Shown: piece after piece, positions 13,564-53,532 of the stretch
Numbering within the stretch: position 1 is the stretch's first letter
Layout of the letters: each line of letters opens with the position of its first letter
Source of the DNA: a virus
Strand: one strand, 5' to 3'
Length of the DNA: 64,000 bases
Virus record (IMG/VR): IMGVR_UViG_3300044691_000566
Coordinates: 95,747 to 159,746 of that record
Position numbers and translations under genes: made by a program
The notes under the pieces: model-generated
What the model saw: the letters and a program-made list of their open reading frames with translations, nothing else
The model's database searches: none
What the model was told of the DNA's origin: nothing

Positions 13564-15336
13564 GTGCCGTACACCGTCACCCTCAACCCCGGGCTGGTCG
13601 ATGTGGCGCTGCCCGGCGGCGTCCTGGCCCAGGGCAGCCACTCCTACACCTTGACGGACGAGCAGTTCCTGATGCTGAGCCCCACGGCCGCAGCAGTGCT
13701 GTTCTCCGCCTCCGGCCAGACCGGCGGGGGCTCGGCCTGGTCGATCGACCCCACCGCCTACGGCGCCAAGGGGGACGGCAAGATCGTCACCGACGGCGCC
13801 ATGACCTCCGGGTCCGCTGTCCTGACTTGCGCCACGTCGACCCCTTTCGTCTCGGCGGATGCCACCGCAGGCAAGCTGGTCATGGTCAAGGGCGCCGGGC
13901 CCAACGGCGTGACCTGCCTGATCACCACGGTCAAGACCTTCACCGACTCCGGGCACGTGGTGCTCAACGCCAGCGCCGCCACCACGATCAGCAACGCCCT
14001 GGTCATGTGGGCCACGGACGACACGGTGGCCTTCCAGGCGGCCATCGACGCCGCCGTGGCGTACGGCCTGGCGCACAGCTACACCGCGACCATCAAGGTC
14101 CCGGCGGCCACCGGCCGGTTCTACGGCATCGGCGGGGCCCTGAAGACCGGCGGCGCCACCAAGGGCAACAGCCAGCTCACGCTGCCGGTGGTGCCCACCA
14201 CCGGGGACAAGCTGACCATCGTCTTCGACGGTCCGGGGGACAGCTCCGCCGTGCAGCACTGGCAGCAGCTCGTCCCGCAGACCGGCGGCGCCACCCTGGT
14301 CAGCTTCTTCGTGCACGCCTCGTCGTCGGCGCAGATCACCAGCATCAACAACGGCGGCAACTCCGCTGTCATCGGCGGCCCGTCCCAGCCGGGCGGCTTC
14401 GGCGTCAACCCGGGCGTCTACACCAACGTCAACGCGGTCTTCCGCAACCTCTCGATCCTGACCAGCCACAGCGCCTTCGGCCTGACCCTGAGCGCGCTGG
14501 ACCTGTCCGGCATCGCCAACGCCAGCCTGGAGAACTTCGCCTACGGCACCGCCGGATCGGTCACCGGCACCGACTACGTGAGTCCCGGGGTCTTCGCGAC
14601 GGGCCTGTCCATCGGCCTGTTGATGCCCGCCTCCGGCAACAACGACAACTGCGTGGTCCGCAATGTGACCTGTCACGGCGGGTTCACGTACGGGTTTTTC
14701 GCCACCGAGCACTGCGACATCTCCGCGATGCGCATCCTGTACTGCTGGGCGGCCTTCTGCCCGGTCGGCACCTACTACAGCTCGGTCGGCTCCACGCACG
14801 CCATCGTCGCCACCAATCTGAGCATCGAGTCGTGCACCTACGTCCTCTACGTCATCGGCGCGGGCGGTGGCGGCCTGGGGCCCTTCCTGCACCTGAGGAT
14901 CGACACGGAGACCTCCACCCCCCGGTTCGGCGACAACAACGGTGGTGTCGGCCTGGCCGCCGCACGCGGGGACGTCTACCTGAGCGGCCTCTACACGGCG
15001 GCGTCGCTGACCCTGGACAACCCGGTGGGCTTCGACATCATCGACGGCCAGCGGTCCTACCCGGTGATCTCGGTCGCGGCCAACTACGCCGTGCTGACCA
15101 CCGACGAGGTGATCCAGGTGGACTGCACGGCAGCCGCCCGGACCGTCACGCTGCCGACGGCCGTGGGCCGCAACCGCCGGATCCTGATCACCAAGATCGA
15201 CTCCAGTGCCAACGCGGTGGTCGTCGCCACCACGGGGGGACAGACCGTCAACGGTGCTGCCCCGGCGACCATCACCGGTCAGTGGACCTCGAAGGAGTAC
15301 TTCCCCACCCCGGCCGGGGTATGGATCGCCCGATGA
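13564..15336 (+). CDS. beta-helix (pectate-lyase-like) spike/fibre protein
   Basis: YGAKGDG...TDDTVAFQAAIDAA motif; RBS GGAGG before GTG 13564. Confidence 0.75.
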   Translation: MPYTVTLNPGLVDVALPGGVLAQGSHSYTLTDEQFLMLSPTAAAVLFSASGQTGGGSAWSIDPTAYGAKGDGKIVTDGAMTSGSAVLTCATSTPFVSADATAGKLVMVKGAGPNGVTCLITTVKTFTDSGHVVLNASAATTISNALVMWATDDTVAFQAAIDAAVAYGLAHSYTATIKVPAATGRFYGIGGALKTGGATKGNSQLTLPVVPTTGDKLTIVFDGPGDSSAVQHWQQLVPQTGGATLVSFFVHASSSAQITSINNGGNSAVIGGPSQPGGFGVNPGVYTNVNAVFRNLSILTSHSAFGLTLSALDLSGIANASLENFAYGTAGSVTGTDYVSPGVFATGLSIGLLMPASGNNDNCVVRNVTCHGGFTYGFFATEHCDISAMRILYCWAAFCPVGTYYSSVGSTHAIVATNLSIESCTYVLYVIGAGGGGLGPFLHLRIDTETSTPRFGDNNGGVGLAAARGDVYLSGLYTAASLTLDNPVGFDIIDGQRSYPVISVAANYAVLTTDEVIQVDCTAAARTVTLPTAVGRNRRILITKIDSSANAVVVATTGGQTVNGAAPATITGQWTSKEYFPTPAGVWIAR

Positions 15337-15338
15337 CC

Positions 15339-15424
15339 TGATAGAGTCAGGGCCTCGGTATGGCTGGGCCGGGCTCGGCTGGTCGGGGCATGGCAGGGGA
15401 GGCCCCCACTTCGGTGGGGGCCTC
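15339..15424 (+). ncRNA. dispersed GGY/NN repeat RNA unit C
   Basis: TGATAGAGTCA; NN = TC AT TG CG TC TG GG AT AG (one GTC triplet); cUUCGg hairpin. Confidence 0.7.
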
Positions 15425-15429
15425 AGCCG

Positions 15430-15463
15430 TGTCCGGGGTCCGGCGAGCCCGGTGAAGGGGTGA
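15430..15463 (+). promoter_or_regulatory. late-promoter motif TGTC-N20-GAAGGGGTGA
   Basis: Motif copy. Confidence 0.7.
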
Positions 15464-15490
15464 AGAGATCCCCTTGACCCGGAGGCCGAC

Positions 15491-15916
15491 GTGGCGCGGT
15501 GGCTGTTCCCCTCTGACCGTCTGGTCTTCCGGTACGGCACGCCCGGAACTCCTCTGTACTCGCCTGCGGCCGAGAGGGTCGTCATCTGCACCGACTCGGC
15601 CGGAACGGCCCTCGCGGGCATCCAGGCGCCCGACGGGACCACGATCGACGCCACCTTGAGCATCGGCCAGGACTGCCTGATCCCCGAGTTCCTGGGCCCC
15701 GACGGCCTCACCACGCTGTACGCCAGGAACAGCGCCGGGATCGTCTCCAAGCTGTACGCACAGTCCGGCCAGTTCTTCGCGGGCTCCGCGATCAACCTGC
15801 CCAACGTCACCGCGCCCCCGGCCACCCCGACCGGCGGCGGTGTGCTCTTCGTCCAGGCGGGAGCACTGAAGTACAAGGGCAGCTCCGGCACGACCACCAC
15901 CATCGCTCCGGCCTAG
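15491..15916 (+). CDS. virion fibre-associated protein
   Basis: C-terminal PTGGGVLFVQAGALKYKGSSGTTTTIAPA, common in actinophage fibres. Confidence 0.7.
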   Translation: MARWLFPSDRLVFRYGTPGTPLYSPAAERVVICTDSAGTALAGIQAPDGTTIDATLSIGQDCLIPEFLGPDGLTTLYARNSAGIVSKLYAQSGQFFAGSAINLPNVTAPPATPTGGGVLFVQAGALKYKGSSGTTTTIAPA

Positions 15917-15924
15917 GAGACACC

Positions 15925-16632
15925 ATGCCCCTGGGGATCCCGCAGCCGAGCGGCATGGTGCCGCACAGCCGCAGCACCATGCAGCCGTACTACATTCGCG
16001 AGCCCCAGCGGTGGGCCGTCGACCAGGAGCGCCAGCGGCACCTCCAGGCGCTGTACTCGGTCGGCGAGTGGACCATCTTCTGTCTCATGTGGCACCTGGA
16101 GGACTTCCAGAACGGCCTCGTGACGCGGTGCTCGGTCTGCTACAACCGCTTCTCCCAGGCGTACAAGCAGGGCGAGCGCAACAAGTGCCCGGACTGTTTC
16201 GGGACGACTTTCGAGGGCGGCTTCAAGGCGATCATCGTGCGCCCGGCGATCTTCGGCGACACCGACGAGGCCACCAAGTACCAGGCGCGTGGCGTCGTGG
16301 ACTCCGACGACCTGGACATGGAGTCGACCCCCGACTTCCGTGTCCGGAGCGGGGACTACTGCTTCCGCTCCACGGGCCACAGGTTCTTCCTCCGGGTGCC
16401 GGAGCGCGTGACCCTGCGGACCGGCTTCGCCACCCCGTACCAGCGCTCCATGGCCGTCGGCTACAACCACGCGCGGGCCTCCCTTGAGGACCGCAGCGCG
16501 GTGGCCTACACCATCCCTCCCAACGAGGCCGACCTGATCCAGATCCTCAGCGTCGCGGTCACCGAGCCGGTGTCGTTCGGGGCTTTCGAAGTGATCAGAA
16601 GCCCCCTGATCCCCATCGACGACCTCGCGTAA
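15925..16632 (+). CDS. putative neck / head-closure protein with Zn ribbon
   Basis: RCSVC...KCPDCFGTTFEGG; position in the neck region. Confidence 0.55.
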   Translation: MPLGIPQPSGMVPHSRSTMQPYYIREPQRWAVDQERQRHLQALYSVGEWTIFCLMWHLEDFQNGLVTRCSVCYNRFSQAYKQGERNKCPDCFGTTFEGGFKAIIVRPAIFGDTDEATKYQARGVVDSDDLDMESTPDFRVRSGDYCFRSTGHRFFLRVPERVTLRTGFATPYQRSMAVGYNHARASLEDRSAVAYTIPPNEADLIQILSVAVTEPVSFGAFEVIRSPLIPIDDLA

Positions 16633-16642
16633 GGATTTTAAA

Positions 16643-17401
16643 ATGTCGCTGCTGTATGCCCGGGTACGCCGGGAGGCCATGGCCTGGCGCAATGAGAGTG
16701 GCGAGCACCACCCCGTGGTGCATCCCGTCAAGCACGTCGGGTTCGCCGGGCACGTGGGCCAGTCCCCCGAAGGCCGTGAGGAGTGGGGGATGGGGGACGA
16801 GGACGAAGACGAGGATGAGGGCGGCTTCGACGAAGACCTTCGCGACAGTGTGCGGCCCGAGCCGACGCCAGAGGAGGAGGAGCACAACGACCTCCACGGG
16901 GAGTACCCGGAAAGCTTCTACGACCGGCACGACGAGGCGTACGACCACGCCCTGGACCAGCGGCAGCGGAAGAACCATGAGGAGAACCGTCCTGACGATA
17001 CGGACGACGAGCTGATGGACTTCATCGGCAATCACGGCACCGACAAAGAGTTCTGGCACAAGCACGCCACCCACGGACCCGTGGACATCAAGCAGCCGGT
17101 CTACGCCACCCAGTCCCACGTCTCCCAGACCCACCTGGACAAGTACCGCCACGCCCCGAATGCCCCCACCCACCGGGACAAGGGCGACGACAGCTACCTG
17201 GGCGACGAGTCCCCGCTGATGGTCACCCACCGAGGCGCCCTGCACACCATCGAAGGCCATCACCGGGTCGCTGCCGCTCTCCAGCGCGGCGACAGCCACA
17301 TACCCGCCTGGCACTTCAATGCCGACGAGCACGGTGGCCTGCCGGACTCCGAGGGCCACATGCCGGACCACGAGGACTACGAGGAGCACTGGAGCGCATG
17401 A
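16643..17401 (+). CDS. acidic His-rich protein with a ParB/Srx-like C-terminal domain
   Basis: YATQSHV...IEGHHRVAAA motif. Confidence 0.7.
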   Translation: MSLLYARVRREAMAWRNESGEHHPVVHPVKHVGFAGHVGQSPEGREEWGMGDEDEDEDEGGFDEDLRDSVRPEPTPEEEEHNDLHGEYPESFYDRHDEAYDHALDQRQRKNHEENRPDDTDDELMDFIGNHGTDKEFWHKHATHGPVDIKQPVYATQSHVSQTHLDKYRHAPNAPTHRDKGDDSYLGDESPLMVTHRGALHTIEGHHRVAAALQRGDSHIPAWHFNADEHGGLPDSEGHMPDHEDYEEHWSA

Positions 17402-17877
17402 GCACCCTGTGGGCTCAGGCGGCCTGGGTCCAGGACGACGCCGAGGACGAGTCGACGCACCCCGAGGTGCGGCCGGTGGAGAAGGCCGGGTTCGCCGGGT
17501 GGGTGACCTCCCCCGGGATGGAGGAGGAGGGCGACCAGCCCCACCACCACAACGAGCCGCTCATGGACCACCTGCTCTCCCACGGCGGGGATGAACTGAG
17601 GGAGATGTCCCAGCACGGCCGGATCCCCCTCAACGAGCCCGTGTACGGCACCCAGAGCCACGTGACCGAGCGGGGCCTGGCCAAGCACGCCTTCCCCGCC
17701 AAGCACGTCCCCGCCGAGCAGAAGCCCCGCTTCATCCGGCACCAGGGGCGCCTGTACGTGGACGACGGCCACCACCGCGTGGGGGCGGCCCTCCTGCGCG
17801 GGGACCCTTCGATCGAGGGCTACTACTTCAACGCCGACAAGAAGGGCTTCCCGGAGCCCGAGAACAGGTGGTGGTGA
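17398..17877 (+). CDS. ParB/Srx-like domain protein, paralog of the previous gene
   Basis: YGTQSHV...VDDGHHRVGAA. Confidence 0.7.
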   Translation: MSTLWAQAAWVQDDAEDESTHPEVRPVEKAGFAGWVTSPGMEEEGDQPHHHNEPLMDHLLSHGGDELREMSQHGRIPLNEPVYGTQSHVTERGLAKHAFPAKHVPAEQKPRFIRHQGRLYVDDGHHRVGAALLRGDPSIEGYYFNADKKGFPEPENRWW

Positions 17878-17879
17878 GC

Positions 17880-18623: not shown

Positions 18624-18628
18624 TCGCA

Positions 18629-19336: not shown

Positions 19337-19340
19337 CCCC

Positions 19341-20003: not shown

Positions 20004-20009
20004 CCCTCC

Positions 20010-20043
20010 TGTCCTTCGGGACCCCGCTCCCCGGAAGAGGTGG
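20010..20043 (+). promoter_or_regulatory. late-promoter motif TGTC-N20-GAAGAGGTGG
   Basis: Motif copy upstream of the sheath gene. Confidence 0.7.
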
Positions 20044-20082
20044 AAGCACGATCTGACCACCGTTCCGGAGGGGTGGAACACC

Positions 20083-21648: not shown

Positions 21649-21665
21649 TCTGAGGGGATTTTAAA

Positions 21666-22635: not shown

Positions 22636-22670
22636 AGTCGGATGGTTACCACATATATGCGGAGCGTGAG

Positions 22671-27799: not shown

Positions 27800-27802
27800 C
27801 CG

Positions 27803-31120: not shown

Positions 31121-31124
31121 GGAG

Positions 31125-43909: not shown

Positions 43910-43925
43910 CCCAGAAGATCGCGCG

Positions 43926-43973
43926 TAGACGGGGATTGTTCCAGGTAGCTAATATCCTGTTAGGAACAATCCC
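43926..43973 (+). promoter_or_regulatory. promoter candidate overlapped by an 11-bp inverted repeat at the late/early boundary
   Basis: TAGACG-N18-TAATAT; GGGATTGTTCC...GGAACAATCCC. Confidence 0.45.
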
Positions 43974-43983
43974 TGGAGGAGTC

Positions 43984-44295
43984 GTGACACTCGACATGAT
44001 GGCGGCGCAGATCGTGATGCGCGCCCGCCAGATCGAGCGCGCCCTGCACGATCCCGGACCCTGGACCATCAGGAACCACGGCCACACCTACCCGGCGCGC
44101 AAGGTCATCGGTGACGACCACGTGACCTTCTATGCCGTCGTGGACATTCACCACCCGGTCCTGGAGCTGTGCGCCGGAGAGCGGTCGATCCAGAACGGGG
44201 GACTGGTGGCCTTCAAGACCGTGGAGAACGTGGAGGGCCCGACCCAGGTCTCCTGGGAGTTCCTGGTGGCCAATTTCGAGCAGGTTGCCGCATGA
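43984..44295 (+). CDS. hypothetical protein
   Basis: RBS GGAGGAG before GTG 43984. Confidence 0.6.
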   Translation: MTLDMMAAQIVMRARQIERALHDPGPWTIRNHGHTYPARKVIGDDHVTFYAVVDIHHPVLELCAGERSIQNGGLVAFKTVENVEGPTQVSWEFLVANFEQVAA

Positions 44296-46880
44296 CGGCT
44301 ACGGCGACCGAGGCCCCCTCCGGCCAGTCGCCGGAGGGGGCTCTCTACTTTTCGCCTCGCGGTCTGTACCCGTTCCAGGCCGACCACATAGCGCGGATCT
44401 ACCTGGGCATCCAGTCCGGCATACCGGAGTGGATGATCGTCTGGGACACCGGGCTGGGGAAGGCGGAGCCCATATCCGAGCCCGTGCTGACTCCGGTTGG
44501 CTGGGTTCCCATGGGCGACTTGCGAGTGGGACATCAGGTCATCGCGGCGAACGGCCGACCGGCGAAGATCCTTGCTGTGCACCCGCAGGAGTCCCGCGAG
44601 GTGTACCGAGTGGCCTTCTCCGACGGCTCCTGGACCAGGTGCAGTCCCGAACACCTGTGGACGGTCTCCTACTGGGGACCTGACCGATCCTCGGGCAAGC
44701 AGGTTCGGGTCCGGCGGAGCAAGACCGTCACCTTGCGCCAGCTCATGGCTGAGGGGGTCACCACTCCGAAGGGGCGTCGGAAGTTCTCCATCCCCATGAC
44801 CGCCCCGGTGCAGTACCCGGAGCGCAATCTGCCCATGGACCCGTATGCCCTCGGGGTCGTCCTCGGCGACGGCAATGTGAACCCTCGCGGATATGTCTCG
44901 CTGACCACCGACAAGGAGATCATCGACGCCTTGGCCGTCCCGGGGTCCCGGTACGAACACCGTTCTGCTGGCGTGGCGGTCCTGAACACCAACGCGTGGA
45001 GAGAGGTCCTGACGGGCCTCGGACTGGCCGGACGCCGGGCCTGGGAGAAGTCCGTCCCAGAGATCTACCTGCGAGCCCCAGAGGACAGCCGCAGGGCCCT
45101 CCTGGCCGGTTTGCTGGACACGGACGGGTCGCCGATCGAAGAGGGCGGAGTCGAGTTCTCCACGACCTCAGAGGCCCTGCTGGACGCGGTGATCGAGCTG
45201 ACCGAGTCGCTCGGCGGACAGGCCCGCAGCAAATCGTCTCGGTTCACGACCTACACGCACAACGAGGAGACGAAGCGGGGGCGCAAGTCCTGGCGGGTAA
45301 ACGTCAAGCTCAACGAGCAGCCGTTCCGTCTGGCGCGCAAGATGATCCGCTGGACCGAGCCGACTAAGTACCCGGTCCAGCGAATCATCGAGTCCATCGA
45401 GCGCGTGGAGGATGAGGATTCGGTCTGCATCACCATCGACCGCTCAGACGGCCTCTACCTCACCCGCAGCCACATCGTCACGCACAACAGCCATGCCGCC
45501 ATGCGGCTGACCACCCTCGGCTTCGAGGACGACGCGGTGGACTTCGTGCTGCTGGTGTGCGAGCGGGGGAAGCTCAAGGAGTGGCAGGCGGACTTCGAGG
45601 AGTTCACCACGCTCGACACCCGGATCCATCACGGGCCGTCCCGGAACGGGAAGCTGGCCAAGCTCGGGCTACCTCAGGTCTTGATCACCACCTTCGAGAC
45701 CGGCAAGGCCGATCTGGTGGTGATGGAGAAGACCGGCCGCAAGCGGCGCACGTTCGAGACCGGTCCGCTGCTCACGCGGATACTCGAACACTCCAGACGT
45801 CCCATGATCATCTTCGACGAGGCCGACCGGCTGAGCAACCGGTCGGCCGCAAACTATCGGGCGTATGAACACGTCCTCAGGACCTTCCGTAAGGTTTTTA
45901 AAATCCCCGTCCTCATGCTGACCGGGACTCCGATCCGGCGGGACTGGGAGGGCTCATTCAACCAGCTCCGCCTGCTCCGACCTGCATCAATGCCTCTCGT
46001 AGGGGAGTTCGAAAAGTACTTCGTACGGGGGAGGGACGACTACGGCCGGGCCCGGTACCACGACTACCGCATGCCGGAGTTCGCCAACCTCTGCTCGCCC
46101 ATGCTGCTGGCCAAGTCCAAGACCGACCCCGACGTCATCGCCCAGTTCCCCGTGTCGACCGAGGAGGCGTTCTGGGTGGACCTGGAGGGGGAGCAGAGGA
46201 AGTTCTACGATTTTGTCGCGGAGCTGGACGCCCCGGGTCAGATGGCGGCTCTCCGGCAGATCTGCGCCCACCCGGCGGCCCTCCTCCACTCGGCCACCGA
46301 GGGCAAGTCCAAGCTGGCCAGGGCCCTCGTGGACGAGTTCGGCGAGGACTACATACGCTCGCTGCCCTCGGCGAAAACCGACGCCCTGGTCCGCTACGTG
46401 GAGCCGATCGTCAAAGGTCAGGACGCCAAGGTTCTGGTCTTCACCTTCTTCGGCCCCTCGGTGATACCGCACCTGCGCGCGGCACTGACCGCCCGGCACG
46501 TCCCGGTCTTCACCCACGACGACGAAGACGGCATCGAGAATTTTAAGAAGCACCCGGGGGGTGGCGTCCTGCTCGCCTCCGACGCGGTGGCCCGGGGGAT
46601 CAACCTGCCCGAGGCCAGCTACCTGATCGAGTACGACGTGGCTTCGACGTTCGGCCTGCGGACCCAGCGGCTGAACCGGGCCTCCAGGATCGGCAAGGGC
46701 GGCCCCACACTCACCATCCGGACCATGCTGGCGCGGGAGAGCCTTGAGATCGCGCTGCTGCACAACATGCTGGAGGGCAACGCCCAGGCCGACGCCCTGC
46801 TCGGTCACGGTGTGGACGGCTCGGAGTTCATGACGGCCGCCATGCGGCGGAAGATCCTCACCGAGGGCATGGGGGAATGA
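44292..46880 (+). CDS. SNF2-like SF2 helicase interrupted by an intein
   Basis: LYPFQ, DTGLGK|S (split by the intein), FDEAD, LTGTP, ARGINL, QRLNRASRIG. Confidence 0.85.
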   Translation: MTATATEAPSGQSPEGALYFSPRGLYPFQADHIARIYLGIQSGIPEWMIVWDTGLGKAEPISEPVLTPVGWVPMGDLRVGHQVIAANGRPAKILAVHPQESREVYRVAFSDGSWTRCSPEHLWTVSYWGPDRSSGKQVRVRRSKTVTLRQLMAEGVTTPKGRRKFSIPMTAPVQYPERNLPMDPYALGVVLGDGNVNPRGYVSLTTDKEIIDALAVPGSRYEHRSAGVAVLNTNAWREVLTGLGLAGRRAWEKSVPEIYLRAPEDSRRALLAGLLDTDGSPIEEGGVEFSTTSEALLDAVIELTESLGGQARSKSSRFTTYTHNEETKRGRKSWRVNVKLNEQPFRLARKMIRWTEPTKYPVQRIIESIERVEDEDSVCITIDRSDGLYLTRSHIVTHNSHAAMRLTTLGFEDDAVDFVLLVCERGKLKEWQADFEEFTTLDTRIHHGPSRNGKLAKLGLPQVLITTFETGKADLVVMEKTGRKRRTFETGPLLTRILEHSRRPMIIFDEADRLSNRSAANYRAYEHVLRTFRKVFKIPVLMLTGTPIRRDWEGSFNQLRLLRPASMPLVGEFEKYFVRGRDDYGRARYHDYRMPEFANLCSPMLLAKSKTDPDVIAQFPVSTEEAFWVDLEGEQRKFYDFVAELDAPGQMAALRQICAHPAALLHSATEGKSKLARALVDEFGEDYIRSLPSAKTDALVRYVEPIVKGQDAKVLVFTFFGPSVIPHLRAALTARHVPVFTHDDEDGIENFKKHPGGGVLLASDAVARGINLPEASYLIEYDVASTFGLRTQRLNRASRIGKGGPTLTIRTMLARESLEIALLHNMLEGNAQADALLGHGVDGSEFMTAAMRRKILTEGMGE
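44463..45488 (+). mobile_element. class 3-type intein with a LAGLIDADG homing endonuclease (342 aa)
   Basis: Starts AEPISEPVLTP, ends IVTHN|S; EHLW (block B Trp), SVCITID (block F Cys), LLAGLLDTDG. Confidence 0.85.
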
Positions 46881-46881
46881 C

Positions 46882-46968
46882 GAAGAGGTCCTCCGTAGAG
46901 GACCTCTTCTCCCTGCCGTGCCTGGCCTCGCCTCGCCTAGCCATGCCCCGCAAGACCTGACTCTATCA
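46882..46968 (-). ncRNA. dispersed GGY/NN repeat RNA unit D
   Basis: TGATAGAGTCA; NN = GG AT TA GA GA CA AC AG; cUACGg hairpin. Confidence 0.7.
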
Positions 46969-46983
46969 GCCCCAGGAGACCCC

Positions 46984-47268
46984 GTGGTGGACCTCGGTCC
47001 TCTCGACGATCCGGCCTACCAACCCGTTCACGCGCCGCAGGACGGCCGTGTGCCGCCCGTGGTGGCCCGCTGGGGGAAGAACTCCCAGCTCCGCTGGTTC
47101 AGGCGCTTCGGGGCCAAGCTGAAGCTCCGGGAGAACGAGGTCTCCGGGTTCTGGGTCTGGTCCGAGCACCATCGGGGGTCTCACTGCGGAGCGTGCCTCA
47201 ACGAGGAGTACGAGGGCACCGGAGTGATCATGGACGGCTGGTGCTGCTGCCGGGACAGCCGAATGTGA
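46984..47268 (+). CDS. small Cys/His-rich hypothetical protein
   Basis: RBS AGGAG; HHRGSHCGAC...WCCCR. Confidence 0.6.
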   Translation: MVDLGPLDDPAYQPVHAPQDGRVPPVVARWGKNSQLRWFRRFGAKLKLRENEVSGFWVWSEHHRGSHCGACLNEEYEGTGVIMDGWCCCRDSRM

Positions 47269-47269
47269 T

Positions 47270-47900
47270 CGACTTGCTACTACGGCATTCGTTGGAGTAG
47301 CGTCTTCCACGTCAGCCCGAGCCGCACTTGGACGCAGCTCGGTAGGGCGATGCACAGCATGACGGCGGCCAGGGGTCTGAGGAAGTCCCCGGCCGCCCAG
47401 AAGCTCCCATGAGATCAGTCCGACTAGGTAGTTCCGCTGATGGGAAGGCGGGGCGTAACGAATCCGGACCCCTGCGGGGAAGCACGGTCTCATGGGCTCC
47501 CAGGCGCTAAAGCTGAGGTCCAGCCCACCTTGCGCCGAAACGGGTAGGTCGGGACACCTCTATGAGGTGTACAGCTCCTGGTCAGCCCCACCAGGGACCG
47601 CAACGGGGCACCTATACGCACGCGGGGCCAGTCGTGATCGAGCCGGTGAATCGACTGGTCCCGCGTGTCCTCGACCGGTATGGCCTCGTTAGGCCATCCG
47701 CGCGACGGGTCAGCCCCACCCGTGGTCGGAAACGGGGCACCCTGGATCCGCGTCGGTCTCCGTTCCGGCGTGACCGGGTAGATCCGGTTTCATCCCTACC
47801 GGATCAGAAACGGTGAGCCGCGTCCTCTTGCCAGCCCGGAAACAAGGACGTAGGGGAGAGCGCACCAGTTCTAGGATCCCCTTCCGTGCAGGCGGAGGGG
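47270..47900 (+). ncRNA. large structured non-coding RNA candidate
   Basis: No ORF with phage codon bias; many stems with G.U pairs and GNRA-like loops; duplicated hairpin/pseudoknot module; boundaries approximate. Confidence 0.6.
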
Positions 47901-47952
47901 GATGGTGCGGGGCAACGACCGTACAGCCCGAACGGCCCCGGATCGGGCACAA

Positions 47953-47991
47953 AGAAGGGCCTGGACAACTCGTGGAGTCCGGGCCCTTCTT
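47953..47991. terminator. hairpin between convergent units
   Basis: AGAAGGGCCTGGAC...GTCCGGGCCCTTCT. Confidence 0.55.
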
Positions 47992-48019
47992 CATGCCCGG
48001 GAACGAGAGGTCCAACAAC

Positions 48020-48121
48020 GAAGGGGACCACCCGGAGGTGGTCCCCTTCTCCCTGCCAAGCCAAGCCCCGCCACGCCATACCCTGCCGCGCCTCGCCATG
48101 CCTCAAGACCTGACTCTATCA
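48020..48121 (-). ncRNA. dispersed GGY/NN repeat RNA unit E
   Basis: TGATAGAGTCA; NN = GA AT GA GC AG AT GT GG TT TT AG; cUCCGg hairpin. Confidence 0.7.
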
Positions 48122-48128
48122 GCCCCCA

Positions 48129-48344
48129 TTACACGGGCGGGTGCGAGTGCAGATGGTTCGTACGCTTCCTGCCGCCGCAGGAGTCCCGGTTCTGGCAGAA
48201 GGCCCCGACACCCCGGCAGTGGTAACAGGTGCTCTCGCCGGGGAGTTCGCTCGTCGGCAGCATCCCCACGTAGTGCTTGCCCTCCGCGACGCGCCCCTGG
48301 CCGAAGCACCCCTGGCAGTGCAGATGGGGTCCGGGACACAGCAT
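48129..48344 (-). CDS. small DnaJ-type CxxCxGxG zinc-finger protein
   Basis: CQGCFGQG and CYHCRGVG. Confidence 0.6.
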   Translation of the reverse strand: MLCPGPHLHCQGCFGQGRVAEGKHYVGMLPTSELPGESTCYHCRGVGAFCQNRDSCGGRKRTNHLHSHPPV

Positions 48345-48514
48345 CAGCGGCTACCGCCCCGGACCTGTCCGGTGCCCTTGCAGGTGTCGCAGCGCTCGGA
48401 CTGGACGATGGTCTTGCCGTCTGTGTTCTGCCGCTCGACCATGTTGAAGCCCCGGCCCTCGCAGGATCCGCAGTCCTGGAAGACCTCGGATTTCTTGCCG
48501 CGTCTGAATCCCAT
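48344..48514 (-). CDS. small DnaJ-type CxxCxGxG zinc-finger protein (56 aa, absent from the ORF track)
   Basis: MGFRRGKKSEVFQDCGSCEGRG...RCDTCKGTGQV; RBS GAGGGGG; TGATG overlap with the next gene. Confidence 0.65.
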   Translation of the reverse strand: MGFRRGKKSEVFQDCGSCEGRGFNMVERQNTDGKTIVQSERCDTCKGTGQVRGGSR

Positions 48515-48537
48515 GTGTGCCCCCTCGGGCCTCGTCC

Positions 48538-48555
48538 GTGGACCTGACTCTATCA
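48538..48555 (-). promoter_or_regulatory. leader/promoter TGATAGAGTCAGGTCC without a GGY tract, upstream of the zinc-finger genes
   Basis: Same leader as the repeat units, followed directly by an RBS and ATG. Confidence 0.6.
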
Positions 48556-48585
48556 GGGCGTGTTGGTCGCGTCACGCAGAATGAC

Positions 48586-48686
48586 GAAGGGGCACCCCCG
48601 TAGAGGTGCCCCTTCTCCCTGCCGTGCCAAGCCCTACCCTGCCCTGCCATGCCAGGCCGAGCCATGCCAAGGACTTGACTCTATCA
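48586..48686 (-). ncRNA. dispersed GGY/NN repeat RNA unit G
   Basis: TGATAGAGTCA, whose TGA is the antirepressor stop; NN = TT AT TC CT AT AG AG AG TT AC AG; cUACGg hairpin. Confidence 0.7.
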
Positions 48687-49565
48687 GGACTTGCGCCCTA
48701 TCGGGATCACGTCGGCGTTGCGGTCCGGCACCGCGCTCAGGGCCGGGCGCTGCTGCTGCTGGCGCAGACGCTGCTGGATCCAGACCAAACCGTCCGGAGT
48801 CACCCTTATCTCCGCAAATCCGCTGGGATTGATCCGGAGCCGGAGATGGATCAGGTGCTCGCTGTACGGCACCGGCTGGCCGTCCCTGCGGCGGTAGACC
48901 ATGCGCACCTCCTCGATCCACCTGAACAGCCGTCCAGGCCCGGTGGAGATCCCCGGGTCCCGGTTGAGGATCGCGGCGGCCTCGGCCACCGAGCAGTCCC
49001 CTTGACCGGCCGCCAGGGCGTTCCACGCCTCCGCCGGAGGCCGCAGCTCCTCCACGAGCTGCTCGGCCCTCTGTTGGGCCTCCAGGGCATCCGCCCAGCC
49101 CCTCAGGGCCTCGGCATGGCTCGGCATCTGCGGAGCCGGGGGAGCAGGCGCGGGAGGGGCGTTCAGGGCCTCCTCGATGGCCTCCATACGCATGGTCTTG
49201 ACCACGAAGTACTGCTGGGCCAGGGCGATCTGGGATTTTTTCACGTCGCCGCTCATGGCGGCGAAATAGCACGCCGCCCGGGTCAGCCGGAAGTCCACGG
49301 AGGGGCGTCCGCCCTGGTCAGGGGTTTGTGTCGGTTTGCCGACATTAACCTCCGGGGTCCGCTTGATCAGCCGGAAGTGGTCCCGGACGTCGTACAGGGA
49401 GTCGGTGCTCATCGCGGTGCGGGCCTTGCCGATCACCCCGTTGAAGTGCCGCCACTGCGTGTATCCCATCAAACCGGCCAACTCCCGGGCGAACCAGTAC
49501 TCTCCGTCGTCGTCCACGTACTTGATCGTGTCGAAGGGGGATGACGCTCGTCTCTCAATTGCCAC
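48684..49565 (-). CDS. phage antirepressor (BRO-N/DinD-like N-terminus, KilA-C/ANT-like C-terminus)
   Basis: EYWFARELAGLMGYTQW, DFRLTRAACY, IALAQQYF; AEALRGWAD...SVAEAA...VTPDG. Confidence 0.85.
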   Translation of the reverse strand: MAIERRASSPFDTIKYVDDDGEYWFARELAGLMGYTQWRHFNGVIGKARTAMSTDSLYDVRDHFRLIKRTPEVNVGKPTQTPDQGGRPSVDFRLTRAACYFAAMSGDVKKSQIALAQQYFVVKTMRMEAIEEALNAPPAPAPPAPQMPSHAEALRGWADALEAQQRAEQLVEELRPPAEAWNALAAGQGDCSVAEAAAILNRDPGISTGPGRLFRWIEEVRMVYRRRDGQPVPYSEHLIHLRLRINPSGFAEIRVTPDGLVWIQQRLRQQQQRPALSAVPDRNADVIPIGRKS

Positions 49566-49668
49566 GTATGCTCCTCAGCGGTTCCCACAGGGCCATCAGG
49601 TGCGGTCGTCCCCGAAGTCCGGAGGGGGCGGCCGTCCTGCTTTCCCGGGATCCTAGGCCCCCAGGCCC

Positions 49669-50754
49669 TTACGCGGTCAAGGGCTGCACCATAAAGGGCT
49701 TCAGCTCCTCGTAGATCAGGTCCTCGGCCTCCCACCGGGTCAGGCCGTCCCGGCGGGCCTCCCGCTTGGACTTCCGGCTGAGGATCCCGACCAGGCGGTC
49801 CCAGCACTGGTTGGTGCCCAGGTCCTCGATCCAGTCCTTCAGCATCCGGACCTCCACGATCCGGTCCCGCCACATGTCGCGGACGGTCCGGCCGACCACG
49901 GTCCCCAGGCGCTTGAGCGCGTTGTGCTCGTGGTGCTGGATCAGGGCCTTGACCGCGCGGCGCCCGAACTTCAGGAAGCTCTCCCGGTGGTCCTCGTGGA
50001 CCATCATCGAGAAGTCGACGGTGACCAGGACCCGGCGGCCCTCCTTGGCCCGGCGGGCGAAGCCGTAGTCCACCAGGCCGCCGACGATCCGCCGGAGCTG
50101 GCGTTCCCCCACACGGAGGATTTTCTCCAGCTCGTCCAGGCCGAAGGTCTGCGCCCTCATCCCCGTCACCATGGCCAGGACCCACCCAGCGTCACCGAAA
50201 TGCTGTCCTCCCCCGTTGTGCTCCGAGGGGTTGGACCAGAGGTCCATGCCCGGGTCCAGGGCCTTCAGCACCTCCGGGGGGATACCGGCCGGATGCCGAG
50301 CACCTCTGGTCTTCTCCTCTTCTTCTTTCAGTACTACTAGCTTTTCAGCACCTATCTCCTGGTCTTTTTTAGAGGTACTTCTAGTAGTAGACCAAGGGTG
50401 CTCGACGTCCGACCGGTACCGCCTGACGTGCAGGGACATGGGCCTGCGCTCGGTCTCGTCGGGGGAGAACTGCCCACGGTTGGTGCAGGAGAGCAGGACC
50501 GTCCCGGCCCCGGCCTCGGGGATGACCTTCAGGATCGTGTCGTCGCAGAGTCCGGACGCCAGCTCGATCTGCCGCAGCCCCTGGGGGTTCTGCATGACCA
50601 GCCCGAGGGCGATGCGGGCCTCGGCGGCAGTGACCGCTCCGTCACTCAGCGCGTGGGCGATGGCGTAGACCGGATGGTCGGTATTGACGACGTCAGGACC
50701 ATGATCGACGTGACTCGTCGATTCGCTTCCGCTACGGTGATCGAACAACTTCAT
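49669..50754 (-). CDS. HTH-containing protein, possibly a replication initiator
   Basis: 3' part of the 1003-aa track ORF; ELEKILRVGERQLRRIVGGLVDYG wHTH; internal AT-rich linker; start uncertain. Confidence 0.5.
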   Translation of the reverse strand: MKLFDHRSGSESTSHVDHGPDVVNTDHPVYAIAHALSDGAVTAAEARIALGLVMQNPQGLRQIELASGLCDDTILKVIPEAGAGTVLLSCTNRGQFSPDETERRPMSLHVRRYRSDVEHPWSTTRSTSKKDQEIGAEKLVVLKEEEEKTRGARHPAGIPPEVLKALDPGMDLWSNPSEHNGGGQHFGDAGWVLAMVTGMRAQTFGLDELEKILRVGERQLRRIVGGLVDYGFARRAKEGRRVLVTVDFSMMVHEDHRESFLKFGRRAVKALIQHHEHNALKRLGTVVGRTVRDMWRDRIVEVRMLKDWIEDLGTNQCWDRLVGILSRKSKREARRDGLTRWEAEDLIYEELKPFMVQPLTA

Positions 50755-50947
50755 TGGGCGGTTCCCGGGATTAGAGATCGGACGGGGGCCGCAACAGGGC
50801 GGCTCTCGTAGGGGGAGCAGGCCCTGGAGGATGCGGGATTGCCGTCCCAACTCCTTGACCTGTGACAGGGATCGTACACGCGAGTGTCCCCTGGACATGA
50901 ACCCCCCGGACCGTCTGGTCCTGGGGGTTTCGGTTTTTAAAATCCCT

Positions 50948-50977
50948 CTTCCACTCCAAGGATCCTTGGTGTAGTCT
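50948..50977 (+). promoter_or_regulatory. promoter with operator ACTCCAAGGATCCTTGGTGT
   Basis: Palindrome CCAAGGATCCTTGG followed by -10-like TAGTCT; homologous to the RAMP-gene promoter spacer. Confidence 0.6.
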
Positions 50978-50982
50978 GGTGC

Positions 50983-53145
50983 ATGCCAGAGAGCGACACC
51001 GAGGAGGGCCCTATGACCGTTGTGGACACCGTGACCCAGCTCCCGCACATACCCGAGAACTTCTCCGTCGTGGAGGGGGCCTTCGCCGCGCACCTGCCGG
51101 GCTACGAGCCCCGCAAGCCGCAGCAGGCCATGGCGAGCGCGATCGAGGTGGCCCTGGCCGACAGCAGGTCCCTCTACGTGCAGGCGGGCTGCGGTACCGG
51201 CAAGTCCCTCGGCGGCATGGTCCCCGCGCTCCTCCAGGCCCTGCACCAGAAGACCCGCCTCATCGTGGCCACGGCCACCAAGGCCCTCCAGGAGCAGTAC
51301 GCCAACAGCGACATTCCGTTCCTCCAGGAGCACTCCGGCATCCCCTTCACCTGGGCGCTGGTCAAGGGCCGCAGCAATTACACCTGCCAGGTCAAGCTGA
51401 ACAGCGACGACATGGAGCACGACGCCACCGCCCAGGCCGTCAAGGCCGAGCTGGCCGCCGACGAGGAGCACTCCGGCGACCGCGAGCACTTCGGTGTCCA
51501 GATCGACGACCTGGCCTGGCGGAAGCTCTCCAGCGGCAGCAGCGAGTGCCCGGGAAAATCCCAGTGCCCGTTCGGCGAGGTCTGCTACGCCGAGAAGGCC
51601 AAGAAGAAGGGCAACGAGTCCGACCTGGTGATCACCAACCAGGCGATGCTCGCCACCGACCTGGTCATCCGGGAGAAGACGCGGAGCGAGAACAGCGACG
51701 GCATCGCGATGCTCGGCGACTACGGCATCGTCCTCCTGGACGAGGGCCACGAGTGGCCGGAGATCGTGGCCAACACGCTGGGCAACGAGTTCACCCCGCG
51801 CGGGGTGCCCTTCCTCCTGCGGGACGCGCTGTCGTTCGTCTCCCTGCACGGCGGCAACGGGGACGACGAGAACCCTGCTGCGGCGGCCATGCAGCAGCGG
51901 GTCGACGAGTGCTCGAAGATCATGAACCAGCTCGACGAGCTGGCCCTCCCGCTGGTCGGCGAGGCCCTGACCCAGAGCTGGTTCGTCGACCACTACGGCC
52001 CCTTCGCGGACCTGAACGACCTGCTCAAGTCGGTCTACCTGGACCTGCGGGGCGTGAAGGTCCGCAACGACGTGGACCGCCAGCAGGGCAAGCTGAAGCT
52101 GCTGCTGACCCGCATCGAGAACACCCTCAAGGTCCTGGAGGAGCTGCTGTTCTCCGAGGACCACGAGCGCGTCCGCTGGGTCGATGGCTACAAGGTCCGC
52201 GAGGAGGACCACTGGCGCCTGAAGGTCGCGCCGGTCGACGTGGCCCCGTTCCTGACGAAGATGCTCTGGGAGGAGACCCCCACCATCGTGATGTCCGCGA
52301 CCCTGTCGGCGGGCAAGGACCGGAACGGCAACGCGGACTTCGGCTACATCAAGCGGACCTCGGGCCTGGAGGACGCCGGGACGGTGGACGTCGGCACCCC
52401 GTTCGACCTCCCGAAGCAGGCCCGCATGTTCGTGCCCGCCCCCACCCAGCCGTCCCCCAAGGAGTACGGCGCCTGGTCCGGCTACGCGATCCGGACGACC
52501 CTGGAACTGGTCGACGCCGCCAAGGGCGGGGCGCTGCTGCTCTACACGAGCCGCAAGGCGATGGAGGCCGCGCACGAGGACCTCAAGGACCGCCTGGAGG
52601 ACCGGGGGTTGACCGTGCTCATGCAGGGCGACGGCCGGAGCAACAAGGAGCTGGCGAAGATCTTCAAGGCGGACACCCACTCGGTGTTGTTCGCTCTGAA
52701 AAGTTTTTTCGTCGGAGTGGACGTCCCCGGTGACGCCTGCCGCCTGGTCATTGTGGACAAGCTGCCTTTTCCGGTCCCTTCCGACCCGATCTTCCAGGCG
52801 CGTGCCCTGGCCGAGGAGCGGGCCGGACGCCGGTCCTTTTCGACCCTGAGCATCCCGATGATGACCCTGTCGCTGGAGCAGGCCGTCGGCCGCCTGATCC
52901 GGACAAAGACCGACAAAGGCGTGGTTGCGATCTTGGACAGTCGCCTGACCAGCACCCCGTACGGCCGGGGCATCGTCACCGCCCTGCCGAACTTCCCGGT
53001 GACCACCAAGATCAGCGACGTCCAGGAGTTCTACGGCGGCCAGACGACTTCCGACCGCCCGGAGTCCACGCTCGCCGACCTGGCGGCCGGGCCCCAGGCG
53101 ACCGTGGGAGAGGTCACCACGGCTTGGAAGAACGGCCTCCGGTGA
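50983..53145 (+). CDS. dinG: DinG/YoaA-family helicase
   Basis: GYEPRKPQ, QAGCGTGKS, TATKALQEQ, KGRSNY.C, FeS cysteines, LDEGH, SATL, GVDVPG, DKLPF, QAVGRLIR. Confidence 0.9.
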   Translation: MPESDTEEGPMTVVDTVTQLPHIPENFSVVEGAFAAHLPGYEPRKPQQAMASAIEVALADSRSLYVQAGCGTGKSLGGMVPALLQALHQKTRLIVATATKALQEQYANSDIPFLQEHSGIPFTWALVKGRSNYTCQVKLNSDDMEHDATAQAVKAELAADEEHSGDREHFGVQIDDLAWRKLSSGSSECPGKSQCPFGEVCYAEKAKKKGNESDLVITNQAMLATDLVIREKTRSENSDGIAMLGDYGIVLLDEGHEWPEIVANTLGNEFTPRGVPFLLRDALSFVSLHGGNGDDENPAAAAMQQRVDECSKIMNQLDELALPLVGEALTQSWFVDHYGPFADLNDLLKSVYLDLRGVKVRNDVDRQQGKLKLLLTRIENTLKVLEELLFSEDHERVRWVDGYKVREEDHWRLKVAPVDVAPFLTKMLWEETPTIVMSATLSAGKDRNGNADFGYIKRTSGLEDAGTVDVGTPFDLPKQARMFVPAPTQPSPKEYGAWSGYAIRTTLELVDAAKGGALLLYTSRKAMEAAHEDLKDRLEDRGLTVLMQGDGRSNKELAKIFKADTHSVLFALKSFFVGVDVPGDACRLVIVDKLPFPVPSDPIFQARALAEERAGRRSFSTLSIPMMTLSLEQAVGRLIRTKTDKGVVAILDSRLTSTPYGRGIVTALPNFPVTTKISDVQEFYGGQTTSDRPESTLADLAAGPQATVGEVTTAWKNGLR

Positions 53146-53426
53146 CCCGGCCGGTGCTGTACTTCGTGCTCGCGTGCTCCCGGCACCAGTCCATGGACTG
53201 GTGCCGGGAGCACGACGTTCGCCCTCACCGGCCCGGGGTCTCCATCGATAATCGCGAGGAACCGGTGGCGCTCCACGTCACAGACATCCAGCGGCTCCGG
53301 GGCCTCCAGGGGTCCGGCCCCATTGAGGTCGTCACGACGGGGAACTGGTATCACCTCCGGGCTTCCGGAGAACTGCTGGAGGTCGCCGAGCGCATTGCCC
53401 AGGTCGCCAACGAGGACAGGTCCTGA
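53142..53426 (+). CDS. hypothetical protein
   Basis: GTGA overlap with the dinG stop; its stop is the TGA of the next leader. Confidence 0.55.
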   Translation: MTRPVLYFVLACSRHQSMDWCREHDVRPHRPGVSIDNREEPVALHVTDIQRLRGLQGSGPIEVVTTGNWYHLRASGELLEVAERIAQVANEDRS

Positions 53427-53532
53427 TAGAGTCAGGACTACATGGTGCGGCTTGGCCTGGTGAGGCGTGGCTAGGCAGGGCAAGGCATGGGTATGGACAG
53501 TGGCTCTCCTCCGGATGGGGGAGAGCCACTGT
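53424..53532 (+). ncRNA. dispersed GGY/NN repeat RNA unit H
   Basis: TGATAGAGTCA; NN = AT GC TT CT GA GT TA AG AA AT; hairpin ACAGTGGCTCTCC...GGAGAGCCACTGT. Confidence 0.7.

What the first reader, a model, noticed from the sequence alone, without database searches (positions are those of the whole stretch)
15334..53532. Solo guide cassettes dispersed through the genome and joined to stop codons
Seen: single units at 15339(+), 46968(-), 48121(-), 48686(-) and 53424(+). The leader's TGA is itself the upstream gene's stop codon at 6436, 11834, 13430, 48686 and 53424, and it follows the stop as TGA-CC-TGA at 11552 and 15334. Inference: ~100-bp promoter-guide-terminator cassettes are copied to gene ends, perhaps by recombination at TGA, and may double as terminators. 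This suggests a Cas1-independent route to new guides.
Basis: partly seen in the sequence, partly recalled or inferred. Interest (0 to 1): 0.7.

Follow-up and report, generated by a model that had tools for sequence, protein, structure and literature searches.

The report
Dispersed VIPR guide-RNA genes at gene ends
The scattered ~100-bp units are stand-alone guide-RNA (vrRNA) genes of a VIPR system, an RNA-guided phage-versus-phage silencing system first described in 2026; what is unusual is that this phage spreads nine of its twenty guides across the genome, each against a gene's stop codon, and its nearest relative has those sites empty.

Summary
The window holds 16 units built alike: a leader TGATAGAGTCARG, 8-12 GGYNN pentamers, and a GC-rich hairpin. 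Four more lie elsewhere in the 159,746-bp phage genome.

The units are vrRNA genes of a VIPR system (bioRxiv 10.64898/2026.04.26.720920 and 10.64898/2026.10.15.759431). The vipr gene lies at 12251-12829 and matches the solved SUSP1 Vipr protein at E 4.6e-40. So "guide cassette" is correct, but the system is already published.

Three things are specific to this genome:
- Nine of the 20 vrRNAs are solo units up to about 52 kb from vipr.
- All nine sit at a gene's 3' end, 0-30 nt from a stop codon, touching it with either the leader or the tail.
- The collinear relative G001 (about 74% nt identity) has no vipr and no vrRNA. Three solo sites there are cleanly empty, so the units are indels of about 91, 113 and 110 bp. 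At three other sites G001 has an ordinary hairpin instead.

I found no evidence for recombination at TGA: there are no target-site duplications and the junctions differ. Gain versus loss is only partly resolved. I found no targets and could obtain no expression data.

The scan's first readers had already noted this system on this genome.

The parts
15339..15429 (+). Solo vrRNA gene: leader TGATAGAGTCAGG, about 9 GGYNN units, hairpin. It starts 2 nt after the stop codon of 13564-15336.
   Evidence: It is a 91-bp insertion relative to G001 (TGACC|TGTCCG). The site is empty in 11 of 11 relatives.
46880..46968 (-). Solo vrRNA gene lying antisense between two + strand genes. Its tail CTTCGTCA abuts the TGA stop of helicase gene 44292-46880.
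   Evidence: It is an insertion of about 113 bp relative to G001.
48018..48121 (-). Solo vrRNA gene whose leader starts 7 nt after the stop codon of 48129-48344(-).
48584..48686 (-). Solo vrRNA gene whose leader TGA is the stop codon of the Ant/Bro antirepressor gene 48684-49565(-).
   Evidence: The G001 homologue runs a few codons longer and ends in TAA with no unit after it.
53424..53533 (+). Solo vrRNA gene whose leader TGA is the stop codon of 53142-53426(+). Read antisense with one base skipped per pair, it decodes to [IM][FL]LYTS[RS][KN]A[IM].
   Evidence: G001 has an unrelated hairpin at this site.
5872..6436 (-). vrRNA array A, five units with leaders at 6436, 6324, 6207, 6078 and 5970. 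The first leader's TGA is the stop codon of 6434-6748(-).
   Evidence: G001 has a plain hairpin after the homologous gene. Relatives G006 and L107 have a single vrRNA here, with unrelated NN strings.
10961..12166 (+). vrRNA array B, six units with leaders at 10961, 11205, 11557, 11834, 11957 and 12075. Interspersed are a non-vrRNA hairpin RNA (11090-11204) and two small genes (DUF397 at 11345-11554; 59 aa at 11657-11836).
12251..12829 (+). vipr gene (192 aa), the RAMP-like effector that should bind the vrRNAs. It has its own TTGACA-N18-TACAGT promoter at 12183-12212.
   Evidence: phmmer E 4.6e-40 to PDB 36pp_D 'SUSP1 Vipr protein'. phrog_4652 at E 1e-57. Homologues lie directly downstream of GGYNN arrays in 28 IMG/VR loci. 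Promoter.
12869..13432 (+). vap-like accessory gene (187 aa). It ends in a leader-like TGATAAGGTCA at 13430 that has no guide after it.
   Evidence: BLASTP E 1e-7 to the 'DNA binding protein' gene that follows vipr in Gordonia phage MakoManhole. phrog_5926. Sequence.
48543..48555 (-). The same leader, TGATAGAGTCAGG, with no GGYNN repeats after it. It sits upstream of protein gene 48344-48514(-), which suggests the leader acts as a promoter element.

Best explanation
The dispersed units are stand-alone genes for VIPR guide RNAs (vrRNAs) that serve the phage's own Vipr protein, encoded at 12251-12829.

**How each unit is built**
- An extended -10 promoter, TGnTAGAGT. It needs no -35 box; where the -10 is weakened to CAGAGT, a TTGACA lies 17 nt upstream.
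- 8-12 GGYNN pentamers, in which only the NN dinucleotides vary.
- A GC-rich hairpin tail. It probably serves both as the Vipr handle and as a transcription stop.

**How it should work (by analogy)**
In the published SUSP1 system, Vipr subunits bind the GGY positions and the NN pairs read double-stranded DNA while skipping every third base. This silences genes of competing phages or satellites.

**What is particular here**
- Nine of the 20 guides lie outside the two arrays that flank vipr.
- Every one of the nine sits in the terminator slot at a gene's 3' end.
- Between relatives they are present or absent as discrete blocks of about 90-115 bp. This most likely reflects insertion or recombinational exchange into the short spacers after stop codons.

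**Shown versus inferred**
- Shown: the anatomy, Vipr homology, the positions, and the filled-versus-empty junctions.
- Inferred: transcription, loading onto Vipr, the targets, the terminator role, and the direction and mechanism of spread.
For: **Identity as VIPR**
- The Vipr homologue matches the solved SUSP1 Vipr protein at E 4.6e-40.
- The vrRNA definition (9-16 YNNGG repeats plus a structured tail) comes and is met by all 20 units.
- GGYNN arrays with this protein family directly downstream recur in 28 unrelated IMG/VR loci.
- A vap-like gene follows vipr, as in MakoManhole.

**Promoter reading**
- All four TGACAG leaders have a TTGAC(A/G) -35 box at 17 nt. None of the TGATAG leaders has one.
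- The same leader sits upstream of a protein gene at 48555.

**Tail**
- The consensus hairpin has 15 pairs, 4 of them with compensatory changes.

**Position**
- All nine solos lie 0-30 nt from a stop codon.
- For eight of the nine the gap to the next gene's start is 15-131 nt. Unit 48121(-) has no gene on its tail side: its 749-nt gap runs across the non-coding stretch to the end of 46984-47268.

**Indel nature**
- G001 is collinear with this genome but has no vipr and no vrRNA.
- Junctions are clean at 15339, 46968 and genome 90379.
- Eleven of 11 relatives are empty at the 15339 site.

**Guides are real and distinct**
- No two units share an NN string.
- No unit matches the phage's own genome above the null, as self-avoidance predicts.
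- Unit 53424 decodes, in frame and wobble-aligned, to a DinG helicase motif: 9 of 10 residues against a null maximum of 7. The phage's own dinG matches at only 15 of 20 nt, because its Leu, Ser and Arg use the other codon families.
Against: - No expression data could be obtained.
- No external target was found for any unit.
- The tail is a simple hairpin, not the invariant pseudoknot tail described for the SUSP1 clade.
- G001 carries a leader plus about 3 decayed pentamers at the end of the homologue of the 59-aa gene. G006 keeps one vrRNA without vipr. VIPR may therefore be ancestral to this clade, and some empty sites may be losses rather than absences of gain.
- The leader motif also occurs without guides, and in reverse orientation downstream of other promoters. 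It may be a protein-binding site as well as a -10 element.
Confidence: 0.8

Rival explanations
1. The dispersal is ancestral, not acquired. An ancestor already carried all these cassettes, and the relatives (G001, G006 and others) lost them after losing vipr. No copying to gene ends occurred in this lineage.
For: G001 has a leader-like TGATAGCGTCAGG plus about 3 decayed pentamers exactly where this genome has unit 11834, which looks like a deletion scar. G006 lacks vipr at the syntenic site but keeps one vrRNA. Loss of vipr-vap with retention of solo vrRNAs is documented in SUSP1 relatives.
Against: The 15339 site is empty in 11 of 11 relatives, including more distant ones at 64-69% aa identity. 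That would require several independent base-precise deletions. The empty junctions show no residual cassette sequence.
Confidence: 0.25
2. The solo units are decoys or weapons aimed at other phages' Vipr rather than guides for this phage's own Vipr. This is the role of the solo vrRNAs of satellites and VIPR-null phages, which hijack or redirect a rival's Vipr.
For: Solo vrRNAs with this role are described (and the discussion). Relative G006 is a vipr-null genome fragment with one vrRNA.
Against: This genome encodes its own vipr. The solos share their leader and tail types with the array units next to vipr; the type-1 tail GGCAGGGAGAAG-hairpin-CTTCGTC occurs in both. No solo matches a vipr gene or a vrRNA in any locus held.
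Confidence: 0.1
3. The units are mainly intrinsic terminators or REP-like structural repeats, and the GGYNN tract has no guide function.
For: All solos sit at gene 3' ends. G001 has plain hairpins at three of the corresponding sites.
Against: A terminator needs neither its own promoter nor 8-12 phased GGY triplets with free NN. The same tract accompanies a Vipr gene in dozens of unrelated phages, and its guide function has been shown experimentally in SUSP1.
Confidence: 0.04
4. The units are CRISPR mini-arrays or solitary CRISPR repeat units.
For: They superficially show a leader - variable part - conserved part layout. Phage-borne solitary repeat units are known (my own knowledge).
Against: There is no 23-50-bp repeat flanking a contiguous spacer. 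Variability is confined to 2 of every 5 bases. The vipr gene itself has no Pfam match even at E 1, and nine neighbouring genes scanned gave only Ant/Bro, DUF397, DinG-type helicase domains and two sub-threshold hits. No search for cas genes across the whole genome was run. Rfam finds nothing.
Confidence: 0.01

Closest known systems
VIPR system of Escherichia phage SUSP1 (type II VIPR; bioRxiv 10.64898/2026.04.26.720920)
   Same: There is a Vipr protein homologue (E 4.6e-40 to the solved SUSP1 Vipr). The vrRNAs are about 100 nt, made of GGY/NN pentamers followed by a structured 3' tail. vrRNAs flank a vipr-vap operon. The system is phage-encoded and has no adaptation genes.
   Different: This genome has 20 vrRNAs against 4 in SUSP1. 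Nine lie 2.5-52 kb from vipr as individually promoted units at gene 3' ends. The tail is a covarying hairpin rather than an invariant pseudoknot. The host is a high-GC actinobacterium. The targets are unknown.
Solo (orphan) vrRNAs of VIPR-null SUSP1-like phages and F5 satellites (bioRxiv 10.64898/2026.10.15.759431)
   Same: These are single vrRNA genes standing outside an array, found on mobile elements.
   Different: Those elements lack vipr, and in the phages the solos sit at the deleted vipr-vap locus. Here the genome keeps vipr and the solos are scattered among structural and replication genes. Relative G006 (one vrRNA, no vipr at the syntenic site) resembles the published case more closely.
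vrRNA loci of actinophages LittleE, Trine and MakoManhole (Vipr homologues at 46-56% identity)
   Same: They have a homologous vipr followed by a second gene, with GGYNN vrRNAs. In LittleE the island also lies among tail genes.
   Different: In those genomes nearly all GGYNN runs lie within about 1 kb of vipr. The exception is a single 1-mismatch match about 6 kb away in MakoManhole, which may be chance. None is clearly dispersed.
CRISPR arrays and phage-borne solitary repeat units
   Same: They are small guide-RNA genes carried by a virus, with a variable part and a conserved handle.
   Different: These units have no repeat-spacer architecture, no Cas1/Cas2 and a non-contiguous NN code. New guides here cannot arise by spacer acquisition.

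Membership tests
VIPR system | A Vipr protein (a minimal RAMP homologue of about 20 kDa) | tested here: met
   P0002 (192 aa, window 12251-12829) matches PDB 36pp_D 'SUSP1 Vipr protein' at E 4.6e-40 over residues 4-188. It also matches phrog_4652 at E 1e-57.
VIPR system | vrRNAs of 9-16 YNNGG/GGYNN tandem repeats with conserved GGY and hypervariable NN | tested here: met
   There are 20 units with 8-12 informative repeats. GGY is conserved and 16 different NN dinucleotides are used. No two units share an NN string.
VIPR system | A structured 3' tail following the repeat tract | tested here: met
   A hairpin of 15 consensus pairs, 4 with compensatory changes, directly follows GGCAGGGAGAAG. It differs from the SUSP1 pseudoknot tail described.
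VIPR system | An accessory vap gene next to vipr | tested here: inconclusive
   Gene 12869-13432 follows vipr. It is homologous (E 1e-7) to the gene that follows vipr in MakoManhole, which is annotated as a DNA-binding protein. It has no PDB or Pfam match. I could not compare it with SUSP1 vap1.
VIPR system | vrRNAs are transcribed as ~100-nt RNAs and bind Vipr | not testable with these tools
VIPR system | NN pairs match natural targets under the 1-nt-skip rule, usually wobble-aligned in coding sequence | tested here: inconclusive
   Unit 53424 decodes in frame to the DinG motif LLYTSRKAM (9 of 10 residues; null maximum 7). No external DNA target was found.
Solo/orphan vrRNA of a VIPR-null element | The element carrying the vrRNA lacks vipr | tested here: not met
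   vipr is present in the same genome.
Miniature transposable element (MITE-like) | Terminal inverted repeats and a target-site duplication at insertion junctions | tested here: not met
   The three junctions mapped against G001 show no duplication. There is only a 2-nt TG ambiguity at 15339. The cassette ends share only TGA...TCA.
CRISPR array | Direct repeats of 23-50 bp separating contiguous spacers, with cas genes | tested here: not met
   The period is 5 nt and variability is limited to NN. vipr has no Pfam match, and no Cas family turned up among nine neighbouring genes scanned. The whole genome was not searched for cas genes. Rfam gives nothing.

The most novel reading that the evidence does not exclude
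vrRNA cassettes are self-contained, transposable-by-recombination units (promoter + guide + terminator, about 90-115 bp) that a VIPR-positive phage gains at terminator slots across its genome. This would be a Cas1-independent way of expanding and reshuffling a guide repertoire. Some guides may be kept next to a recoded, resistant allele of the gene they attack in rivals. Unit 53424 lies 900 bp from a dinG gene whose Leu, Ser and Arg codons evade it, and genome unit 56013 lies next to a gene it matches at 18 of 24 nt in frame. Such a pair would be a linked guide-plus-immune-allele module, analogous to homing-endonuclease marker exclusion.
Probability: 0.15. Interest if true: 0.75.

Novelty: new variant of a known kind. 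Interest (0 to 1): 0.5.

Why it matters
VIPR was reported only in 2026, and how its guide repertoires grow and change is an open question because the system has no adaptation module. This genome offers a natural experiment with three parts:
- a 20-guide VIPR-positive phage;
- a collinear VIPR-less relative with base-precise empty sites;
- two relatives that carry a single, differently programmed vrRNA at the array A site.

It shows that guides can live as independent ~100-bp transcription units in terminator slots far from the effector gene. It also shows that guide content turns over faster than the flanking DNA.

There is a practical consequence for searches. Looking for vrRNAs only next to vipr will miss part of the repertoire in large phages. 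A second phage of 148 kb, G008, also has a vrRNA array 30 kb from its vipr.

Tried and rejected
**Identity searches that found nothing**
- Rfam at gathering thresholds over the window, and at E up to 1 over 47200-48200.
- Pfam and PADLOC for Vipr.
- Literature searches for "pentanucleotide repeat" and "GGCNN". The link came from the PDB sequence hit.

**Early ideas rejected once VIPR was identified**
- A TRAP-like protein sponge.
- G-quadruplex RNA.
- R-loop origins.
- Coding pentapeptide repeats (TAG stops are frequent in the repeats).

**Target searches**
- Own genome, G001 and 156 held loci: nothing above permutation nulls.
- Exact 1-nt-skip patterns for units 53424, 48121, 48686 and 11957 in viral contigs: no match.
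- Unit 53424 in genome contigs: no match.
- Unit 53424 in metagenome contigs: one hit, in 39% GC DNA with an in-frame stop, so judged chance.
- The search for related loci with DinG found no relatives. With Vipr in genome contigs it found only two Thiodictyon loci, so I had no host-genus handle for mismatch-tolerant scans.

**Expression**

**A general "guide targets its neighbour gene" rule**
- Only 2 of 20 units have their best genome-wide match within 1.5 kb. The chance of two or more doing so is about 0.06 (my own binomial estimate from the 53 windows), and the combined test is not significant.

**Other checks**
- The generic sigma-70/terminator scan does not call the leaders or most tails, because they lack a -35 box and a U-tract.
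- No vrRNA pair looks like a recent duplicate.
Full report
**1. What is there**

The window is the last 64 kb of a single-contig virus record of 159,746 bp. The record has 67% GC, direct terminal repeats, and a CheckV completeness of 100%. Distant tape-measure similarity to Streptomyces phages and a DUF397 gene point to an actinobacterial host.

The 13-nt leader TGATAGAGTCAGG occurs 17 times in the window at up to 2 mismatches, against 0.83 expected. Genome-wide, 20 leaders are followed by 8-12 in-phase GGYNN pentamers and then a GC-rich hairpin. They are arranged as follows:
- Array A holds five units on the minus strand (5872-6436).
- Array B holds six units on the plus strand (10961-12166).
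- Five solo units lie in the window, at 15339(+), 46968(-), 48121(-), 48686(-) and 53424(+).
- Four more solos lie outside it, at genome 56013(+), 71398(-), 72649(-) and 90379(-).

The one weak case is 13430. There the motif is a degenerate TGATAAGGTCA, and hairpins follow it but no guide.

**2. What it is**

In 28 different loci the array is directly followed by a homologous protein of about 190-240 aa.

The window's member of that family is 12251-12829. It matches phrog_4652 and the solved "SUSP1 Vipr protein", PDB 36pp, at E 4.6e-40.

Two 2026 preprints describe this system as VIPR. Vipr is a minimal RAMP protein. It binds ~100-nt vrRNAs made of 9-16 YNNGG repeats plus a structured tail. 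The NN dinucleotides read double-stranded DNA while skipping every third base, usually the codon wobble position. Natural targets are competing phages and satellites.

All sequence-level defining features are met here. The gene after vipr (12869-13432) is homologous to the gene after vipr in Gordonia phage MakoManhole.

**3. Anatomy of a unit**

*Leader.* The leader reads as an extended -10 promoter: TG-n-TAGAGT, which fits the Streptomyces -10 consensus TAGRRT (my own knowledge).
- The four leaders weakened to TGACAG(A/G)GT all have TTGAC(A/G) 17 nt upstream. None of the TGATAGAGT leaders has it. This kind of compensation is what real promoters show.
- The same leader precedes a protein gene at 48555(-) and a non-vrRNA hairpin RNA at 11090-11204.
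- The TGA that overlaps stop codons is therefore the TG of the extended -10. It is also part of a variable CCTGA-N5-TCAGG inverted repeat.

*Tail.* The tails form a hairpin directly after GGCAGGGAGAAG. The consensus has 15 pairs, 4 of them with compensatory changes. Several tail subtypes exist. Solos 46968, 48121 and 48686 share the type found in units of both arrays.

*Guide.* No two units share an NN string.

**4. Position**

Every one of the nine solos lies 0-30 nt from a stop codon. Three arrangements occur:
- The leader overlaps the stop codon: 48686 and 53424.
- The leader follows the stop codon by 2-7 nt: 15339, 48121 and genome 56013.
- In the four antisense units the tail abuts or follows the stop of a convergent gene by 0-30 nt: 46968 and genome 71398, 72649 and 90379.

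For eight of the nine, the gap to the next gene's start is 15-131 nt. The ninth, 48121(-), has a 749-nt gap on its tail side. That gap runs across the non-coding stretch 47270-48000 to the end of 46984-47268, not to a gene start.

So the units occupy the terminator slot of their intergenic spacer, in either orientation.

**5.

The relative G001 (IMGVR_UViG_3300003316_000301) is 155,979 bp and estimated complete. It is collinear with this genome at about 66-83% nucleotide identity. It has no vipr, no GGYNN run, and only two near-matches to the leader.

| Site | G001 | This genome |
|---|---|---|
| 15339 | TGACC\|TGTCCG | 91 bp inserted between, from TGATAG to CAGCCG; only a 2-nt TG ambiguity, no duplication |
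| 46968 | next sequence follows the helicase stop TGAC | about 113 bp inserted right after TGAC |
| genome 90379 | stop codon, then CTCCAAC...GGAGTAC promoter | about 110 bp between the stop codon and that promoter |
| 53424, genome 72649, array A | unrelated plain hairpin | vrRNA unit(s) |

After the 590-aa gene, 11 of 11 relatives are empty, including more distant ones. The cassettes are discrete indels.

**6. Direction and mechanism**

Parsimony favours gain in this lineage at the 15339 site. The picture is not clean, however.
- G001 retains TGATAGCGTCAGG plus about 3 decayed pentamers at the end of the homologue of the 59-aa gene, where this genome has unit 11834 and then vipr-vap.
- G006, a 22-kb fragment that spans the island site, lacks vipr but keeps one vrRNA at the array A position. 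It also has two leader-promoted hairpin RNAs at the empty island.
- VIPR may therefore be ancestral to this small clade and have been lost repeatedly, as reported for SUSP1 relatives.

The junctions share no sequence rule, so nothing supports recombination at TGA. Homologous exchange between co-infecting relatives could move a cassette once it exists. How the first insertion happens is unknown.

At the array A position, the vrRNAs of this genome, G006 and L107 have conserved leaders, GGY positions and tails but unrelated NN strings, although the flanks are 82-87% identical. Guide content therefore turns over faster than its surroundings.

**7. Function**

No unit matches the phage's own genome, G001 or any held locus above permutation nulls. 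For the own genome this is what self-avoidance predicts.

Unit 53424, read antisense with one skip, decodes to [IM][FL]LYTS[RS][KN]A[IM]. The phage's own dinG, 900 bp upstream, encodes LLLYTSRKAM in frame (9 of 10 residues; null maximum 7). Its DNA matches at only 15 of 20 positions, because its Leu, Ser and Arg use the alternative codon families. This reproduces an earlier first-reader note and fits a guide aimed at a rival's helicase gene.

Neighbour linkage is not a general rule. Only 2 of 20 units show it.

Exact-pattern scans of public collections found no target, and expression could not be examined.

**8. Comparison and novelty**

VIPR, vrRNAs and solo vrRNAs are published. In LittleE and Trine all GGYNN runs lie next to vipr. 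In MakoManhole all do except one 1-mismatch match about 6 kb away that may be chance. The published solos belong to elements without vipr.

A VIPR-positive phage with nine individually promoted guides scattered over about 93 kb in terminator slots, with base-precise empty alleles in a relative, is not described in either preprint. A second large phage, G008, also has vrRNA arrays 10 and 30 kb from its vipr.

I class this as a new variant of a known kind. The earlier first-reader notes on this genome had already recognised the GGY-NN RNAs and the RAMP-like protein.

Noticed in passing
window 12183-12212; also about 53549-53575 and 5800-5860(-); genome 29110, 42504, 45338, 50379, 90390: A second promoter family, TTGAC-N-CTCCAAGGATTCCTGGAG-TAnnnT, has an inverted repeat (a likely operator) between the -35 and -10 boxes. 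One copy drives vipr. The family is conserved in relative G001. The reverse complement of the vrRNA leader (CTTGACTCTGTCAGG) lies just downstream of several copies.
   Followed up: partly
window 11090-11204 (+): A vrRNA-type leader is followed here not by GGYNN repeats but by an RNA with an 18-bp hairpin (MFE -46.5 kcal/mol, z -3.5). G006 has two similar leader-promoted hairpin RNAs at its empty VIPR site (L156:12690-12900).
   Followed up: partly
window 47270-48000: About 800 bp has no ORF with high GC3, and G001 has about 900 bp of hairpin-rich non-coding DNA at the same place. Rfam gives only sub-threshold hits. This may be an unknown structured RNA or a regulatory region.
   Followed up: partly
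L148:11350-11420 (G001 11404-11416, minus strand): The VIPR-less relative keeps TGATAGCGTCAGG plus about 3 decayed pentamers at the end of the homologue of the 59-aa gene. This looks like a scar of a lost vipr-vap locus.
   Followed up: partly
G008 (contig of L079), 77165-78138, 106842-107101, 117396; vipr at 107664-108227: Another complete 148-kb phage has vrRNA arrays about 30 kb and 10 kb from its vipr gene, so distant vrRNA loci are not unique to this genome.
   Followed up: partly
L012, L068, L079, L095: In several IMG/VR contigs, GGYNN arrays lie directly between tRNA-like sequences (GGTTCGAnTCC T-arms), which suggests co-transcription or tRNA-linked processing of vrRNAs.
   Followed up: no
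window 44292-46880: An SNF2-type helicase gene carries an intein-like insert: its translation includes a Hint/homing-endonuclease-like segment ending in THNS.
   Followed up: no
window 11345-11554: A DUF397 gene (Pfam E 1e-14) sits inside vrRNA array B. It is absent from G001, which has a small membrane-protein gene there instead.
   Followed up: partly
L001 (Mycobacterium phage Brocalys 32670-32729) and other Cheoctovirus phages: GGYNN-type tracts occur in an intergenic region near the integration cassette of cluster F mycobacteriophages (a 60-bp blastn hit to array A). These may be vrRNAs in phages I did not check for vipr.
   Followed up: no
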